Source of the DNA: a virus
DNA length: 64,000 nucleotides
IMG/VR virus record: IMGVR_UViG_3300042564_004498
Coordinates: 1 to 64,000 of that record
Reading direction: 5' to 3' (one strand)
This document shows positions 1,696-63,001 of this stretch, piece by piece. Position numbers and translations under genes: made by a program. How positions within the stretch are numbered: the stretch's first letter is position 1; the number at the start of each line of letters is the position of its first letter. The notes below the pieces were generated by a model, which was not told the DNA's origin, did not search any database, and saw only the letters and a list, made by a program, of their open reading frames with translations.

Positions 1696-2316
1696 ATGGA
1701 TTTTTTAATTAACGAATCTCAACTGAGAACAATTTTAACGGAACAAGATAAATCTAAGATGACAGATTATATGAAAGTACTATATTCTTTCACAAATAAT
1801 CTTGTTGGTAGAGTACTAAAAGTTTATGGGTTTAACTTAAAAATGTTATTAACTTGGGGTACCTCTGTTGGAGGTATGGTTATGCCATTAGACAACTTTA
1901 TCAAAACAGGAAATTTTGATTTAACCGATGACCAACGATATTTAATTTTAGCGGGAGTCGCTTTCATTATATTTTTTGAAAGTAAAAAAGGACTTGTAAA
2001 CATTTTAGAACAAATTAAAGAAGAGGGTCTTGAAGACACTTTTAGAATCGTTTTAGAAAAAGCTAAAGATTTAAAATCTTCATTTAAAGGATTTCTTAAT
2101 TCGTTAAAAGTTACATCAAGTAGTTTCATGGAAACCGTTGCTTATAGTTTCTTAATACCAATTATTTTAGATATCCAAACTATTGCTTATAACACCTCTG
2201 ACCCAAAAGAGGCTGGAATACATATTGCAGAAAGACTTATTGCTTCAGGAGTTGTTGTTATTGGGTCACAAGTATTATCTCAAGTACTTAGAAAAATAAT
2301 AGAAAGACTTAGGTAA
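1696..2316 (+). CDS. hypothetical protein with INESQ/LTEQ leader
   Basis: MDFLINESQLRTILTEQ; TATTTAT upstream. Confidence 0.75.
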   Translation: MDFLINESQLRTILTEQDKSKMTDYMKVLYSFTNNLVGRVLKVYGFNLKMLLTWGTSVGGMVMPLDNFIKTGNFDLTDDQRYLILAGVAFIIFFESKKGLVNILEQIKEEGLEDTFRIVLEKAKDLKSSFKGFLNSLKVTSSSFMETVAYSFLIPIILDIQTIAYNTSDPKEAGIHIAERLIASGVVVIGSQVLSQVLRKIIERLR

Positions 2317-3049
2317 ACATTTCATCATTAATATCAAAATGATTGGCTGTTGGGTGAACGTCTAAACCATCTATTGATTTAACATACCACAAGGGTTGTA
2401 CGTATAAGTCATCAATTTTTAATAAATTAATTTCATCTCGTAATGTACTATAAAGAATATTTTCTACCTCATCTTTAAATCTATCCGAATCATACATCAT
2501 ATCACTAACAACGCCCGCCAACTCATCTATCATGTCTAAATTAGGTGATACTGTTTTACCGTTTATTTTAAAATTTGATAATTTAAGGTAAAAATAAAAA
2601 GTAATATAATCCCCATCAAAATTACTAAAATAACCATCAGATGGTTCCCAATGTATGTTAAATTTTAACCAATTTGTTTTATTTGTAATAAGTTCCGCAG
2701 TTTGAATTCGTTGTTGAATTTTTTTTAATACTTTTTGTTCCTTCTCAGGACTAATATAAACACCACCTTTAACAGGTTGTTTACCATTAACCAGTATGTG
2801 AGCATTTATTGATATTGTAGCATCAAGATACTTTGATATGTTATCAATAATATCATCTATATGACTTTCAAAAACTGGTATTGCATATGATTGATTTTTT
2901 TTAGGTAAAATAACATTTATAGTGACATCATATATGGGTATAAACCCTGTCTCATCAAGTTTAATTTTAATAAAATGATATTCACATCCATCCTCTAAAA
3001 AAGGGTGGGACATTAACATTTTTTTAAGAACATTAGATAAATCAGACAT
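2309..3049 (-). CDS. hypothetical protein
   Basis: 246-aa ORF coupled to upstream gene. Confidence 0.75.
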   Translation of the reverse strand: MSDLSNVLKKMLMSHPFLEDGCEYHFIKIKLDETGFIPIYDVTINVILPKKNQSYAIPVFESHIDDIIDNISKYLDATISINAHILVNGKQPVKGGVYISPEKEQKVLKKIQQRIQTAELITNKTNWLKFNIHWEPSDGYFSNFDGDYITFYFYLKLSNFKINGKTVSPNLDMIDELAGVVSDMMYDSDRFKDEVENILYSTLRDEINLLKIDDLYVQPLWYVKSIDGLDVHPTANHFDINDEMFT

Positions 3050-4022
3050 TATTTAAAATTTTTGCAATGACTTTTTCTTTTTGAGTCGGATTCAATCTAT
3101 GTTTATGAGGATTTTTTTCAAACCAATTCCTAACCAATGTTTCAAAATCTAATTTTGTTGTTTTAGATTTTCTATTAAATCCTGCTCTTTGTGCTTCTAA
3201 CTCATGTTGTTGCGTGTAATAAATTTCAGGGTCTTCAGTTTCTTCCTCTGGTGTTTCAAACCCTTCATCATGTTGTTTAACATGTTCCAATTCATGACGA
3301 ATAACCTCATTTAATTCGTGGCTTAATTCCTCTAAAATAGAATATCCCGCATTTGGATTTGAAATGATGGTAACAATCACATCATCATCGTCATATCGTA
3401 ATTCAGCGTCTACATCTACAGTATCCACATCATCACTCAATTCTAAATTCAATTTAATAACAAATCCTTCAATTCCAGGGTAAGTATAAACCATCTCATC
3501 CCCATTAATATCTTCAGGTAAAGTGAACTCACCTTCTCTTTGATACTTGAAAAAATTTATAATGTCTTTTACCAATACTCTGGTTAATTTATCTAATTTT
3601 CCTTCAACAAGTATTGATTCGTTCAATTTGTCCTCAGCAACTTCATTTATCACTCTAGTGCATATCGCCTTTTTTTCCACACCAAAATATTGTAAGAAAT
3701 CAGTTAACTTCTCGTTCATTATCCATCTAATGTTTGCATATTGTTGGCTAGTGGTATTAATTGAAACTTTTTTACCATAGATATCACCATACAATTTACT
3801 CCACCTGTCTGAGGTTTCATTTGTAGGTAGGATATAGATAGTATATTCAACATGTGGTTTCTTATCGCCCACATGATAATAATCTTTCACACCTGTTAAT
3901 TTTACTTTAACATTTGTTGGCACAGAATAGTCCTCATCATGTGTAGGTTGTAAATAAACCTCAAATGTATGGTTGGCAAAAAATTCGTTAATTCTTTCTA
4001 TTGGAAAATCTATAAAATTCAT
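3042..4022 (-). CDS. HExxH zinc metallopeptidase-like protein
   Basis: VIRHELEHVKQ...ELEAQ. Confidence 0.6.
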   Translation of the reverse strand: MNFIDFPIERINEFFANHTFEVYLQPTHDEDYSVPTNVKVKLTGVKDYYHVGDKKPHVEYTIYILPTNETSDRWSKLYGDIYGKKVSINTTSQQYANIRWIMNEKLTDFLQYFGVEKKAICTRVINEVAEDKLNESILVEGKLDKLTRVLVKDIINFFKYQREGEFTLPEDINGDEMVYTYPGIEGFVIKLNLELSDDVDTVDVDAELRYDDDDVIVTIISNPNAGYSILEELSHELNEVIRHELEHVKQHDEGFETPEEETEDPEIYYTQQHELEAQRAGFNRKSKTTKLDFETLVRNWFEKNPHKHRLNPTQKEKVIAKILNNV

Positions 4023-4034
4023 TACCTATAAATA

Positions 4035-4460
4035 CTACCGAATTGGGATTGATAACCCCACACCATAATTAATTCCATTCATATAGTTTACACCTAATGT
4101 AAAATCAGGTCCTTCTTTAACATCTAAGATGATTCTAAGTGGATAAATTTTAACCCAAACATCAGGTTTGAACTTAACTTCATCTAAGTAATTTTCAAGG
4201 AATACTCCACCCATGACAGATACCTTATGATTGGTAAGACTTATACCAGCTCGGTTCATTCTTGATTGAGGAGTTGTGTAGATATATGGTTGTGGAAACG
4301 ATGTGGTGATGTATCCACCAACATAAAAACCAAGACCATTGTAATTATTATTGTATGTTACGACGGCACTTTTGTCGTTTGGCACATACATCACATCAGA
4401 GGTTTGTCCATTCACTAATGAACAAATAAAAAATAAAATAAGGGTAAGTGTTGTTTTCAT
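4035..4460 (-). CDS. exported protein, possible small outer-membrane beta-barrel
   Basis: Signal peptide MKTTLTLILFFICSLVNG; amphipathic beta strands ending YGVGLSIPIR. Confidence 0.5.
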   Translation of the reverse strand: MKTTLTLILFFICSLVNGQTSDVMYVPNDKSAVVTYNNNYNGLGFYVGGYITTSFPQPYIYTTPQSRMNRAGISLTNHKVSVMGGVFLENYLDEVKFKPDVWVKIYPLRIILDVKEGPDFTLGVNYMNGINYGVGLSIPIR

Positions 4461-61290: not shown

Positions 61291-61484
61291 ATGACAATAA
61301 TAATCATAGGTATTTATTTTGTCAAATTAAAATAGTGTGGTGAATTATAGGTATTTGTGGTGAATTATGGTTATTTATCCCCCACTCTTGTGAATAGTAG
61401 TTAAAAATGATACAACATAGGAGTGAACGAAAAAGGAGACCTTGTATGGTCTCCTTATGTAGTGAGTGAGTATGATGTATTATT

Positions 61485-62006
61485 TTACCATGTTCTACAT
61501 GCCCAATATCTTGGTTTCCATCTTGGTCCAGGGTTATCACAATTATGTCTAGCCCTAAATGATTTTCTTCTTTCAGGATTATTCTTTTTAATCCTCATTA
61601 TTTTACCATGAGCAGATTTTCCTCCAAACCCAAAGTTAACCTTTACAACCTTACCCTTATCGTTTTTAACATATACCTTTGACTTCTTAACATCACCTTG
61701 CATAATTTTACCAAGTTGGACCTTACGCCCTTGGTATTCAGCTTCGGTTAACAAATCACCAATAACAAAGTTGGTTTCTTCAACTGAACCATACTTATCC
61801 TCATACAAAGTTTTATTTTTTGAGGTCTCTTCAATCTCTTCAGATTCATTCTTAACGCAATTTGGATATCTTTTACCAAACATTGTTTTCATCCCTTTTT
61901 TGGTATAACCTTTCCAACAACCTTCAGTCATTTCAGTTTCTTCTGCAAGAACACGTTTGATTAAATGAATCAAATCTCCTTCAGTAAGTTTAATAATCTT
62001 TGTCAT
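61485..62006 (-). CDS. leader-bearing protein with CWKGY module and basic Cys/Trp C-terminal domain
   Basis: MTKIIKLTEGDL; CWKGY...PNCVK; RRKSFRARHNC...RYWAC. Confidence 0.75.
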   Translation of the reverse strand: MTKIIKLTEGDLIHLIKRVLAEETEMTEGCWKGYTKKGMKTMFGKRYPNCVKNESEEIEETSKNKTLYEDKYGSVEETNFVIGDLLTEAEYQGRKVQLGKIMQGDVKKSKVYVKNDKGKVVKVNFGFGGKSAHGKIMRIKKNNPERRKSFRARHNCDNPGPRWKPRYWACRTW

Positions 62007-62011
62007 ATTAT

Positions 62012-63001
62012 TTATTGTTTTAAATGTTTAAATCTAAATTCTATCTTCGCTCCTTTTGGGTCTTCCGCCTTCCATCTGAATCTCTTACCAATATAGTCTT
62101 TAAGTTCTCCCCTCATTTTGATTTTGATTGCGTCTTCCACCTTAGTTGAATCAAGGTTAGGAATCTCCCCCTTTAAATAGTTTTGTGGTGTAGTCACTTG
62201 GGTGTTGTTTTCTCTTTTAAGAACATCATATACATCTATGTCCACGAAAGCTTTGTCATCATTCACATCTATATTCTTTACTTGGAACTTTATATTTGTA
62301 TTTGGAACCATTTGTTCTGGGTCCCGATTCCAATAGTTGAACGTCTTTGCAGTTTTCTTTCTCTTTTTTAAATCAGGTTCAATATTTTTTAATTTCTGTA
62401 CCTTATTCTTCATTATCTCCTCGTGACTATATCCTCTTTCTAATAGTTTCATCTCCTCAGGAGTTAATGTGTACAAATTGTCAAACTCTTTATTGTCCCA
62501 CGATACAGGATTGGAATTACTCATTTGTCTACTCGTGGATGAAGAATAATTTGCAGTTACCTCATACCACTTATCATCTTTGAATATGTAAACTGGGTAC
62601 CATCCGTATGATGCAACTTTGTAGTATGGAATTCCTTTTGGGTCTTCAGTCCAATAACCCTCTAAGTTTGAACCCCTGAAAGGTAATTGGGCTATTGTGT
62701 ATAACTTCGCATTTGGATTTGATATAACTTTACCCTTTTGTTTTCTTGGGTCAACAAAGTTCTCCTTTGTTAGATTTGAATAGTCACCATCTTTTTTAAA
62801 GTTTAACACATACAATTCCAAAATATATTGTTCAAACCCTTCAGGTATTCCCATATATGGCGCCATGTGTTTGATGACGGTCAATAAAGATGCTCTCGTT
62901 CTATTTTTTTTCTTCTCCTCGTCTAATAACTTGAATAGCTTGGAAACCACTTTTAATGATGGCTCATTGGACTCTTCCGATATTGTGGTAATTGTTTTCA
63001 T
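62012..63001 (-). CDS. hypothetical protein
   Basis: MKTITTISEE; SYGWYPVYIF...YSSST. Confidence 0.75.
   Translation of the reverse strand: MKTITTISEESNEPSLKVVSKLFKLLDEEKKKNRTRASLLTVIKHMAPYMGIPEGFEQYILELYVLNFKKDGDYSNLTKENFVDPRKQKGKVISNPNAKLYTIAQLPFRGSNLEGYWTEDPKGIPYYKVASYGWYPVYIFKDDKWYEVTANYSSSTSRQMSNSNPVSWDNKEFDNLYTLTPEEMKLLERGYSHEEIMKNKVQKLKNIEPDLKKRKKTAKTFNYWNRDPEQMVPNTNIKFQVKNIDVNDDKAFVDIDVYDVLKRENNTQVTTPQNYLKGEIPNLDSTKVEDAIKIKMRGELKDYIGKRFRWKAEDPKGAKIEFRFKHLKQ

What the first reader, a model, noticed from the sequence alone, without database searches (positions are those of the whole stretch)
1696..63001. Shared N-terminal leader on more than 20 unrelated proteins: candidate capsid-targeting cargo system
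Seen: leaders MKYIITES (21830), MKYIITEEQ (45103), MEYIITEQQ (46558), MKYVLTESQ (50923), MEYIIKESQ (52278), MEYIISE (56033), MDFLINESQ..LTEQ (1696), MKKVIKLTESDL..LKEQ (16255), MKKIHTLTESDL (43998), MTKIIKLTEGDL (61485), MSKRFEITESE..ISEQ (18724), FNISESEK..LKEQ (25161), MRELIKKVLKEQ (11665), MRDLIKNILREN (27178), MNLQENI.RI..MM (59622, 60187) and others. Downstream domains differ completely (nucleases, metallopeptidase, muramidase, PG-binding, flavoprotein). Most follow TATTTAT, while genes behind host-type promoters lack the leader. Knowledge: T4 internal proteins carry a short N-terminal capsid-targeting sequence removed by gp21 protease after (I/L)-x-E. Inference: a much expanded, modular address tag that loads an arsenal of effectors into the head for injection.
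Basis: partly seen in the sequence, partly recalled or inferred. Interest (0 to 1): 0.85.

Follow-up and report, generated by a model that had tools for sequence, protein, structure and literature searches.

The report
Capsid-address leader tags on phage proteins
About 25 otherwise unrelated late proteins in this half-genome of an uncultured T4-like jumbo phage start with a few short, swappable peptides that end in the motif its head protease should cut, so they are probably a much enlarged version of phage T4's "load into the capsid, then clip" tag; neither cutting nor packaging has been measured.

Summary
All listed coordinates check out. I count 25 leader-bearing genes in the window (14 by strict profiles). 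There are 29 of 234 ORFs on the 145.5-kb contig and 25-27 in each of two relatives.

The tags are N-terminus-specific, conserved at the amino-acid rather than the DNA level, tied to the TATTTAT late promoter, and fused to unrelated bodies. In IMG/VR the 23-residue class-B tag heads at least 61 unrelated protein families. Orthologues swap tag classes exactly at an [ILV]-x-E-Q boundary.

The contig is only about 48% complete and has no head genes. Nine of ten near-complete relatives or other tag-bearing contigs encode a T4 gp21-type (S77) prohead protease. In one relative read in full it lies in the T4 order 20-67-68-21-22-23. That relative's capsid-protein N-terminus, scaffold and core protein carry excess [LI]-x-E sites, the gp21 cutting rule.

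Best reading (about 0.6): T4-style capsid-targeting propeptides, greatly expanded and in several classes. Cleavage, packaging and injection are untested, and most cargo functions are unknown. A radical-SAM tag, an mRNA signal and a host sorting signal were tested and rejected.

The scan has noted similar tags in other uncultured T4-like phages. I rate it a new variant of a known kind.

The parts
1696..2316 (+). Class A leader gene (206 aa). The leader covers about 1696-1743 and ends I-L-T-E then Q.
   Evidence: TATTTAT lies 6 nt before the ATG. The G006 orthologue keeps the leader.
6098..6721 (-). Class C-like leader gene, read from the internal Met at 6721.
   Evidence: This is a looser member.
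11665..12633 (-). Class C leader gene (322 aa). The leader ends V-L-K-E then Q. The body has a weak Mrr_cat_2 match.
   Evidence: TATTTAT lies 6 nt upstream.
12706..12942 (-). Small late gene with a weak class C-like start.
   Evidence: 7.5 bits. Marginal member.
16255..17250 (-). Class B leader gene (331 aa). The leader is 17182-17250, followed by a linker, a PG_binding_1 domain and an unknown C-terminal domain.
   Evidence: 30.4 bits. AF2 shows the leader as a low-confidence helix at residues 9-24, then disorder. The same leader sits on at least 8 other bodies.
18724..19221 (-). Bipartite leader gene (165 aa) with I-T-E-S near the start and I-S-E-Q at residue 22.
20186..20470 (-). Class A leader gene (94 aa).
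21830..22195 (-). Class A leader gene (121 aa), lying inside an operon.
   Evidence: It is a paralogue of 72717-73112 over the full length.
22468..23205 (-). Leader gene (245 aa) whose leader ends L-I-S-E then Q. The body has a weak glucosaminidase match.
24194..24460 (-). Class A-like leader gene (88 aa).
24462..25091 (-). Class A leader gene (209 aa).
25161..25793 (-). Bipartite leader gene (210 aa) with I-S-E-S near the start and L-K-E-Q at residue 26.
25822..26535 (-). Leader gene whose leader ends V-I-S-E then Q. It is followed by the same S-V-V-G-x-P-N linker as 16255.
27178..27591 (-). Class C leader gene (137 aa).
   Evidence: (17.2 bits)
43136..43996 (-). Gene with a short L-I-K-E-Q start, in an operon behind 43998.
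   Evidence: Marginal member.
43998..44858 (-). Class B leader gene (286 aa).
   Evidence: 24.5 bits. The G006 orthologue keeps the leader.
45103..45696 (-). Class A leader gene (197 aa).
   Evidence: The G001 orthologue carries a class C leader instead.
46558..46920 (-). Class A leader gene (120 aa).
48116..48280 (-). Small late gene whose N-terminal part ends I-R-E-Q.
   Evidence: Looser member.
50923..52041 (-). Class A leader gene (372 aa, an ORFan).
   Evidence: The G006 orthologue has a different leader.
52278..52583 (-). Class A leader gene (101 aa).
56033..56353 (-). Class A leader gene read from the Met at 56353, which has TATTTAT 4 nt upstream.
59622..60185 (-). Class D leader gene read from Met26 of the long ORF. 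The leader ends V-I-N-E then Q.
60187..60960 (-). Class D leader gene (257 aa).
   Evidence: 20.6 bits. The G006 orthologue (62% identical body) has another leader.
61485..62006 (-). Class B leader gene (173 aa).
   Evidence: 27.3 bits. The G001 orthologue (body 82% identical) carries a class A leader.

Best explanation
The leaders are capsid-targeting propeptides of the T4 kind, expanded and split into several classes.

Proposed mechanism:
1. Late in infection the tagged proteins are made from TATTTAT promoters.
2. The short N-terminal tag docks them onto the scaffolding core while the prohead is built. The tag is an extended stretch carrying a first [LI]-x-E at residue 7 or 9. In the longer classes it is followed by an amphipathic basic helix that ends in [ILV]-x-E-Q near residue 23.
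3. The gp21-type (Peptidase S77) prohead protease then cuts after the Glu of these motifs. This frees the mature proteins inside the head, from where they can leave with the DNA at the next infection.

Because the tag is autonomous, new genes gain capsid access simply by acquiring it. That explains the swapping of tags among orthologues and the many unrelated bodies.

Shown here: the anatomy, N-terminal specificity, modularity and promoter link of the tags; the T4-type head module and protease in the clade; and the matching site pattern in head proteins.

Inferred: binding to the core, cleavage, packaging and ejection.
For: (1) N-terminal specificity. 58 of 65 profile hits are N-terminal against 9.4% expected. 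In IMG/VR, 94 of 96 class-B copies have the Met 6-7 residues before L-T-E.

(2) Conservation is at the protein level. Synonymous codons vary freely.

(3) Modularity.
- The same class-B tag sits on 61 BLAST-unrelated body clusters out of 90, and on at least 8.
- One PG-binding family carries four different tags, each ending [ILV]-x-E-Q just before the conserved body.
- In 16 of 27 orthologue pairs the tag is replaced while the body stays up to 82% identical. Where the tag is kept, it is 66% identical against 49% for the body.

(4) Fit to the T4 cutting rule.
- The first [LIV]-x-E peaks sharply at Glu 7 (39 of 81 leader proteins) and Glu 9 (14).
- [LI]-x-E density is 4.6% at residues 2-10 of late proteins against 1.0% in bodies, while [AGS]-x-E is not enriched.
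- [LIV]-x-E-Q is enriched 3.5-fold in the first 35 residues; control motifs are not.
- gp21 cuts after L/I-x-E, and the T4 targeting sequence is the first 10 residues (PMC9026906). The T4 ipI, ipII and ipIII N-termini read from NC_000866 end I-A-E and I-T-E.

(5) The protease.
- Peptidase_S77 hits at E about 1e-23 were found in 5 of 5 complete relatives chosen by DNA polymerase, and in 4 of 5 further large tag-bearing contigs.
- G006 has the order TerL, portal, two small ORFs, protease, scaffold-position ORF, gp23-like capsid protein.
- His, Ser and Asp candidates are conserved in the protease alignment.

(6) Head proteins of G006 show the T4 pattern of sites.
- 13 [LI]-x-E sites against 2.8 expected in the gp67/68-position protein.
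- 14 against 6.6 in the scaffold-position ORF.
- 4 sites in the first 60 residues of the capsid protein, then 3 in the next 540.
- Sites at both ends of the protease, and none N-terminal in portal or terminase.

(7) AF2 models show the tag as a low-confidence helix separated from the folded body by a break or linker right after the K-E-Q site.

(8) The tag is almost absent from cellular genomes: 7 loci in 185,579 species. Two of the 5 bins also hold an S77 protease, once on the same contig.

(9) Internal copies sit at module joints. The G006 orthologue of 73115 is fused behind another module with the tag at the junction, and 72081 is a two-module protein. This is what protease-cut joints would look like.
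Against: - There is no proteomic, N-terminal or structural evidence for cleavage or packaging in this phage or any relative.
- The window's own contig has no protease, scaffold or capsid gene because it is about 48% complete. The link rests on relatives.
- The number of tagged proteins, roughly 10% of genes, is far above T4's handful.
- Cargo bodies are not basic. Their pI distribution matches the rest of the proteome (p = 0.39), unlike T4 internal proteins.
- One 93%-complete tag-bearing contig shows no S77 hit.
- A lone tag-bearing gene sits in a Prevotellaceae chromosome with no such protease.
- Some tag copies lie at C-termini. That fits a docking helix but not a strictly N-terminal signal.
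- [LI]-x-E is a short motif. Part of its N-terminal excess follows simply from the conserved tag sequences themselves.
Confidence: 0.6

Rival explanations
1. The tag is a general docking or oligomerisation helix for some other late structure or partner, not the capsid interior. Candidates are the tail or baseplate, the cell membrane (as a cationic amphipathic helix), a chaperone, or a lysis or cell-wall complex. It may not be cleaved at all.
For: - The class-B helix is amphipathic and basic.
- Copies occur at C-termini and inside proteins.
- Several bodies are cell-wall related: PG_binding_1, YkuD, and weak glucosaminidase.
- Cargo is not basic.
- One tag-bearing contig and one bacterial locus lack an S77 hit.
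Against: - This reading does not explain the invariant [ILV]-x-E(-Q) ends and the fixed Glu 7/9 register, which match the clade's protease family rule.
- It does not explain the same motif pattern in the capsid protein propeptide region and core proteins.
- It does not explain the close parallel with the T4 ip N-termini.
- The short 7-residue class A has no helix to dock with.
Confidence: 0.2
2. The shared start has no address function. It is a by-product of gene birth and shuffling, in which a late promoter plus its first codons act as a recombination cassette, or the start is simply the conserved first strand or helix of a few paralogous small-protein families.
For: - Some tagged proteins are true paralogues over their whole length.
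- Tagged genes sit in tandem arrays in plastic regions, each with its own terminator and promoter.
Against: - Synonymous sites vary, so there is no DNA-level cassette.
- 61 unrelated bodies share one tag.
- The tag is more conserved than the bodies, and its register to the Met is fixed. Both imply purifying selection on the peptide itself.
- Late structural genes with the same promoter and spacing lack the tag.
Confidence: 0.1
3. The tag is a recognition leader for a modifying enzyme, as proposed elsewhere in this scan for a radical-SAM-linked tag in RB43-like phages. Here the candidate enzyme would be the radical-SAM gene at 31616-32626.
For: - A CxxxCxxC radical-SAM ORF lies in the window.
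- An earlier scan note (e1-127136) describes such a tag system.
Against: The window's radical-SAM protein has no homologue in G001 or in the complete G006, and G006 has no other CxxxCxxC enzyme candidate. Both genomes nevertheless carry 25-27 tagged genes. The gene sits in a glycosylation and sulfation cluster, not near the tagged genes.
Confidence: 0.03
4. The conserved first codons are an mRNA-level signal for translating nearly leaderless late transcripts, since the promoter lies only 4-5 nt from the ATG.
For: TATTTAT lies 4-5 nt before the ATG in many late genes. This suggests very short 5' untranslated regions.
Against: - The same spacing occurs in 70 untagged late genes.
- Codons vary synonymously.
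- The tag extends 23 residues and also occurs internally and at C-termini.
Confidence: 0.03

Closest known systems
Phage T4 capsid targeting sequence (CTS) of internal proteins IPI, IPII, IPIII and Alt, removed by prohead protease gp21 (Mullaney & Black 1996; reviews PMC9026906, PMC3012670)
   Same: - A short N-terminal tag on otherwise unrelated, fast-evolving proteins.
- It ends in L/I-x-E, and genes are late.
- The clade has a gp21-family protease in a 20-67-68-21-22-23 head module.
- The T4 ip N-termini resemble class A in length and in the I-x-E end.
   Different: - About 25-30 tagged genes per half to whole genome, instead of about 4-8.
- At least four tag classes, including a 23-residue bipartite one with two sites and a near-invariant Gln after the second Glu.
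- Tags are swapped between orthologues.
- Copies occur internally and at C-termini.
- Cargo is not basic.
- Nothing has been shown experimentally.
Propeptides of head, inner-body and ejection proteins of giant phages phiKZ, 201phi2-1 and SPN3US, cut by gp175/gp245, distant gp21 homologues (PMC5694885, PMC10052503)
   Same: - Jumbo phages with many head proteins processed after Glu at a three-residue motif.
- Multiple sites within one propeptide.
- Identical N-termini on diverged paralogues.
   Different: - Those propeptides are mostly longer than 100 residues, and their motif is S/A/G-x-E.
- Here the tags are 7-26 residues, and [AGS]-x-E is not enriched.
- The protease here scores directly as Pfam S77.
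Polymorphic ip loci of T-even phages, where varied ORFs keep only a CTS-like start (PMC9026906, section 3.1)
   Same: A conserved tag with variable cargo in plastic genome regions.
   Different: The scale is larger, several tag classes coexist, and tagged genes are spread over many loci.

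Membership tests
T4-type capsid targeting sequence system | The tag is the extreme N-terminus, roughly 10-20 residues. | tested here: met
   Profile hits are 58 N-terminal against 7 elsewhere. 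In IMG/VR, 94 of 96 copies have a fixed Met register.
T4-type capsid targeting sequence system | The tag ends in the gp21 cleavage motif L/I-x-E. | tested here: met
   The first [LIV]-x-E peaks at Glu 7 and Glu 9, and the second site is [ILV]-x-E-Q. Enrichment is 4.4-fold, with controls flat. This is sequence evidence only.
T4-type capsid targeting sequence system | The phage encodes a gp21-family (Peptidase S77) prohead protease within a T4-like head module. | tested here: inconclusive
   It is absent from the window's own contig, which is 48% complete. It is present in 9 of 10 near-complete relatives or tag-bearing contigs. The G006 head module is in T4 order.
T4-type capsid targeting sequence system | The tag is removed by the protease during head maturation. 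| not testable with these tools
   No proteomic data exist. The protease-plus-tag complex job gave no answer (listed under Tried and rejected).
T4-type capsid targeting sequence system | Tagged proteins are found inside the capsid and are ejected. | not testable with these tools
   No cultured member exists, and no class-B tag occurs in GenBank phages.
T4-type capsid targeting sequence system | The tag is conserved while the cargo varies. | tested here: met
T4-type capsid targeting sequence system | Late expression. | tested here: met
   There is an association with TATTTAT, the motif that also precedes tail and head genes in G001 and G006. That this motif is the late promoter is itself an inference.
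T4-type capsid targeting sequence system | Cargo is small, basic and DNA-associated, as in T4 IPI-III. | tested here: not met
   Median pI is 6.1 against 5.9 for the rest of the proteome (p = 0.39). The proteins are small, though: median 121 aa.
phiKZ/SPN3US-type long propeptides | Cleavage motif S/A/G-x-E and propeptides longer than 100 residues. | tested here: not met
   [AGS]-x-E is not enriched N-terminally. The tags are 7-26 residues.
Radical-SAM/RiPP-like recognition leaders | Co-occurrence of the tag with one modifying enzyme. | tested here: not met
   The window's radical-SAM gene has no homologue in the tag-rich G001 and G006.
Sec/Tat/lipoprotein signal peptides | A hydrophobic core after a basic N-region. 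| tested here: not met
   Read directly from the sequences: the tags are charged and amphipathic, with Glu, Asp, Lys and Arg throughout and no hydrophobic stretch. No dedicated predictor was run.

The most novel reading that the evidence does not exclude
The tag classes form a combinatorial address code. Different leaders (7-residue class A, bipartite class B, classes C and D) would send cargo to different places, copy numbers or ejection orders inside a jumbo T4-like head. Because tags are freely exchangeable and can also serve as protease-cut joints in multi-module proteins, this lake phage lineage would load and inject dozens of rapidly changing proteins per virion. That would be a plug-in delivery system far beyond anything described for T4.
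Probability: 0.2. Interest if true: 0.85.

Novelty: new variant of a known kind. Interest (0 to 1): 0.62.

Why it matters
- If the tags are capsid addresses, roughly a tenth of the genes of an abundant group of freshwater Bacteroidota jumbo phages encode proteins that travel inside the virion. That would turn dozens of ORFans into candidate first-minute effectors, such as cell-wall-active, anti-defence or takeover proteins.
- It would give a simple sequence rule for finding packaged proteins in metagenomic phage genomes.
- It would show that the T4 targeting principle is ancient and can be scaled up. It would also supply short natural tags of 7-23 residues for loading foreign proteins into non-coli phage capsids.
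- The prediction is concrete: mature N-termini should lie right after Glu 7 or 9, or after the [ILV]-x-E preceding Gln. Virion mass spectrometry can test it directly.

Tried and rejected
- **Protease-plus-tag complex.** Complex prediction with the G006 protease alignment and the first 45 residues of a class-B protein gave no answer. It counts neither for nor against.
- **Identifying the phage.** megablast and tblastn against GenBank phages found nothing for the window, a class-A cargo, the class-B tag (chance hits only) or the Prevotellaceae tag protein.
- **Cargo function.**
  - Pfam and PHROGs left nearly all cargo bodies unnamed.
  - The ESM Atlas gave only viral hypothetical clusters for 50923.
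  - A Foldseek search with the low-confidence 16255 model matched only its PG-binding domain, with sub-threshold hints of colicin-M-like folds for the C-terminal part.
- **Taxon-wide search.** It was replaced by the genome-contig scan.
- **Rejected readings.**
  - A radical-SAM recognition tag.
  - A DNA or mRNA-level signal.
  - A host sorting signal.
  - The phiKZ-type S/A/G-x-E motif.
- **Flavobacterium phage immuto.** It lacks classes A-D as such. Two of its proteins start with a related tag containing I-L-S-E-Q and I-I-T-E-S.
- **Scripts.** It was redone from stored files.

Full report
**What the window is.** The window is the first 64 kb of a single 145,525-bp IMG/VR virus contig with 30% G+C. 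The contig is linear and CheckV rates it 48% complete. It carries Bacteroidota-style promoters and a second, very frequent motif, TATTTAT, close to many start codons. No GenBank phage is similar at the DNA level.

**Relatives.**
- Relatives found through the DNA polymerase include several complete contigs of about 310-326 kb.
- I fetched one of them, G006, in full. Its polymerase is 81% identical to that of the window's phage.
- I also fetched a 214-kb relative, G001.
- G001 carries a contractile-tail module.
- G006 carries a head module in the T4 order: large terminase, gp20-like portal, two small ORFs, head maturation protease, a 537-residue highly acidic scaffold-position ORF, and a gp23-like major capsid protein.
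- The nearest cultured capsid protein belongs to Flavobacterium phage immuto.
- The phage is therefore a distant T4-like jumbo myovirus of Bacteroidota. Its head genes lie on the missing half of the genome.

**The observation.** They fall into four classes.
- Class A is about 7-10 residues, with Glu at position 7.
- Class B is about 23 residues. It has L-T-E at 7-9, then a helix-forming stretch that ends K-E-Q.
- Class C is the second half of B placed directly after the Met.
- Class D starts M-N-L-Q-E-N-I.

**N-terminal specificity and counts.**
- A class-A profile built without the Met still hits almost only right after a Met.
- Four profiles run over three genomes give 58 N-terminal hits and 7 others, although N-terminal positions are 9.4% of all positions.
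- Strict profiles flag 14 genes in the window. With looser patterns and inspection I count 25.
- Across the genomes the count is 29 of 234 ORFs on the contig, 25 of 267 in G001 and 27 of 406 in G006.

**Level of conservation.** Codons for the conserved residues vary synonymously, for example Tyr TAC/TAT, Ile ATT/ATA, Thr ACA/ACT/ACC and Leu TTA/CTT. Selection therefore acts on the peptide.

**Promoters.**
- TATTTAT lies within 32 nt of the start in 17 of 27 leader genes against 29 of 207 others (p = 1e-7).
- Most of the remaining leader genes are internal to operons of tagged genes.
- A strict host-type promoter motif precedes 1 of 29 tagged genes against 24 of 205 others.
- The promoter-to-ATG spacing is bimodal, at 4-5 or 13-17 nt, in tagged and untagged late genes alike.

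**Modularity.** This is the strongest result.
- The small PG-binding protein at 85787-86134 of the contig has 132 metagenomic homologues. They carry four different leaders on one conserved body, and every leader ends [ILV]-x-E-Q a few residues before the body begins.
- A search restricted to the first 40 residues of the 16255 protein found the same leader on at least 8 unrelated bodies. These include PG_binding_1, YkuD and many with no family.
- Of the 96 copies I read, 94 have the Met 6 or 7 residues before L-T-E, one is at a C-terminus and one is cut by a contig end.
- Their 90 bodies fall into 61 BLAST-unrelated clusters.
- Gln follows the final Glu in 54 of the 96 copies, and 58 of the 94 N-terminal copies have TATTTAT upstream.
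- Among orthologue pairs between the three genomes, the tag is replaced in 16 of 27, with bodies up to 82% identical. Where the tag is kept it is more conserved than the body, 66% against 49%.
- Internal copies sit at junctions of fused modules.

**Link to the head protease.**
- Peptidase_S77, the T4 gp21 family, is found above its cut-off in 5 of 5 complete relatives and in 4 of 5 further large tag-bearing contigs.
- The protease alignment keeps candidate His, Ser and Asp catalytic residues.
- T4 gp21 cuts after L/I-x-E, and the T4 capsid targeting sequence is the first 10 residues of IPIII (PMC9026906; PMC3012670).
- The T4 ip genes read from NC_000866 begin with tags that end I-A-E and I-T-E.
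- In tagged proteins here, the first [LIV]-x-E has its Glu at residue 7 in 39 cases and at residue 9 in 14, out of 81.
- [LI]-x-E density at residues 2-10 of late proteins is 4.4 times the body density. The phiKZ-type [AGS]-x-E motif is not enriched.
- [LIV]-x-E-Q is 3.5-fold enriched in the first 35 residues, with control motifs flat.

**Site pattern in G006 head proteins.** The pattern matches what is known for T4.
- The gp67/68-position protein has 13 [LI]-x-E sites against 2.8 expected.
- The scaffold-position ORF has 14 against 6.6.
- The capsid protein has 4 sites in its first 60 residues and only 3 in the remaining 540.
- The protease has sites at both ends.
- Portal and terminase have no N-terminal sites.

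**Structure.** AF2 models of two class-B proteins show the tag as a low-confidence helix at residues 9/10-24. It is separated by a break or a disordered linker from confidently folded domains.

**Where else the tag occurs.**
- The class-B tag is absent from GenBank phages.
- It is almost absent from 185,579 prokaryotic species genomes, with 7 loci in all.
- Three of those loci are on short contigs of one MAG that also holds an S77 protease.
- One is on a 64-kb contig of a single-cell assembly that carries an S77 protease on the same contig.
- One is a lone gene in an AT-rich islet of a Prevotellaceae chromosome, next to a transposase-like gene.
- The tag is therefore a phage feature and not a host sorting signal.

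**Rivals.**
- A radical-SAM recognition tag was suggested by an earlier scan note on other phages. It fails here because the window's radical-SAM gene has no homologue in the tag-rich G001 and G006.
- An mRNA-level signal fails on synonymous variation, on untagged late genes with the same spacing, and on the internal and C-terminal copies.
- Pure paralogy fails on the 61 unrelated bodies, although a few tagged proteins are true paralogues.
- The serious rival is that the tag docks proteins to something other than the prohead core, or is not cleaved. C-terminal copies, non-basic cargo and the cell-wall flavour of several bodies leave room for this.

**What is not shown.** Cleavage, packaging and injection are not shown. 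So are the functions of nearly all cargo proteins. The protease-tag complex prediction gave no answer.

**Verdict.** The finding is a real, highly non-random system of modular N-terminal tags. It is most likely (about 0.6) an expanded, multi-class T4-type capsid-targeting and processing signal. The principle is known from T4. New here are the scale, the bipartite 23-residue class with its E-Q boundary, the coexistence and swapping of classes, and use of the tag as a module joint. None of these appears in the literature I could search. Earlier notes of this scan report similar tags in other uncultured T4-like phages, so this is one more instance, and a particularly rich one.

Noticed in passing
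window-wide, e.g. 12634-12650, 19222-19240, 44859-44875, 52042-52060: TATTTAT sits either 4-5 nt or 13-17 nt before the ATG of late genes, in a bimodal pattern that holds for tagged and untagged genes alike. The short class implies nearly leaderless late mRNAs. Many units have a G+C-rich hairpin directly upstream.
   Followed up: partly
window 26614-26892 (-); G006 216750-217184, 129259-130587; G001 5296-5766; L184: Leader-like motifs also occur at the extreme C-terminus of a few ORFs. This recalls the C-terminal processing of T4 Alt and gp21, and suggests the motif acts as an autonomous docking element.
   Followed up: partly
contig 72081-72716 (L001:8081-8716) and G006 226584-227672: These are two-module proteins in which a class-A leader sits at the internal junction. 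In the G006 case the downstream module is the orthologue of a free-standing tagged gene (73115-73534). They look like protease-jointed polyproteins.
   Followed up: partly
contig 69837-73534 (L001) and G001 173902-176968: Tandem arrays of 5-8 consecutive small tagged genes, class A with some class C, in plastic regions that differ between relatives.
   Followed up: no
window 16255-17250 (-): The C-terminal domain behind the PG-binding domain gave only sub-threshold Foldseek hints of colicin-M-like bacteriocins (PaeM, pectocin M1, syringacin M), and the model was of low confidence. Another first-reader note raised the same idea.
   Followed up: partly
window 28498-43087: A cluster of sulfotransferase-like, glycosyltransferase-like, radical-SAM and nucleotide-sugar genes surrounds a 1264-residue repeat fibre gene (36626-40420). 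The radical-SAM gene at 31616-32626 is absent from G001 and G006.
   Followed up: partly
L288 / G011 contig 1, 102597-103196: A Prevotellaceae chromosome (47% G+C, flanked by SusC/D-like genes) holds a lone AT-rich gene. It starts with a class-B-like tag in its gut variant, which continues K-E-S-V, and lies next to a transposase-like ORF. No S77 protease was found in that genome.
   Followed up: partly
L283 and L289 (G012 contig 9): A 64-kb, 29% G+C contig in a Prochlorococcus single-cell assembly carries both a class-B-tagged gene and an S77 prohead protease. It is probably a co-sorted or infecting T4-like phage.
   Followed up: no
NC_055915.1 25061-25456 and 111675-112139 (L161, L160): Cultured Flavobacterium phage immuto has two proteins that begin with a related 24-residue tag containing I-L-S-E-Q and I-I-T-E-S. 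The phage encodes an annotated prohead core serine protease, so it could serve as an experimental handle.
   Followed up: partly
contig 109356-110153 (L003:5356-6153, -): An ORF whose N-terminal region looks like a sigma-70-type factor by eye, conserved at 70% identity in G001. It is a candidate late sigma factor for the TATTTAT promoters. It was not run against any family library.
   Followed up: no
contig 142303-145509: The contig ends in long collagen-like Gly-X-Y type repeats read in another frame. This probably explains why the assembly broke there.
   Followed up: no
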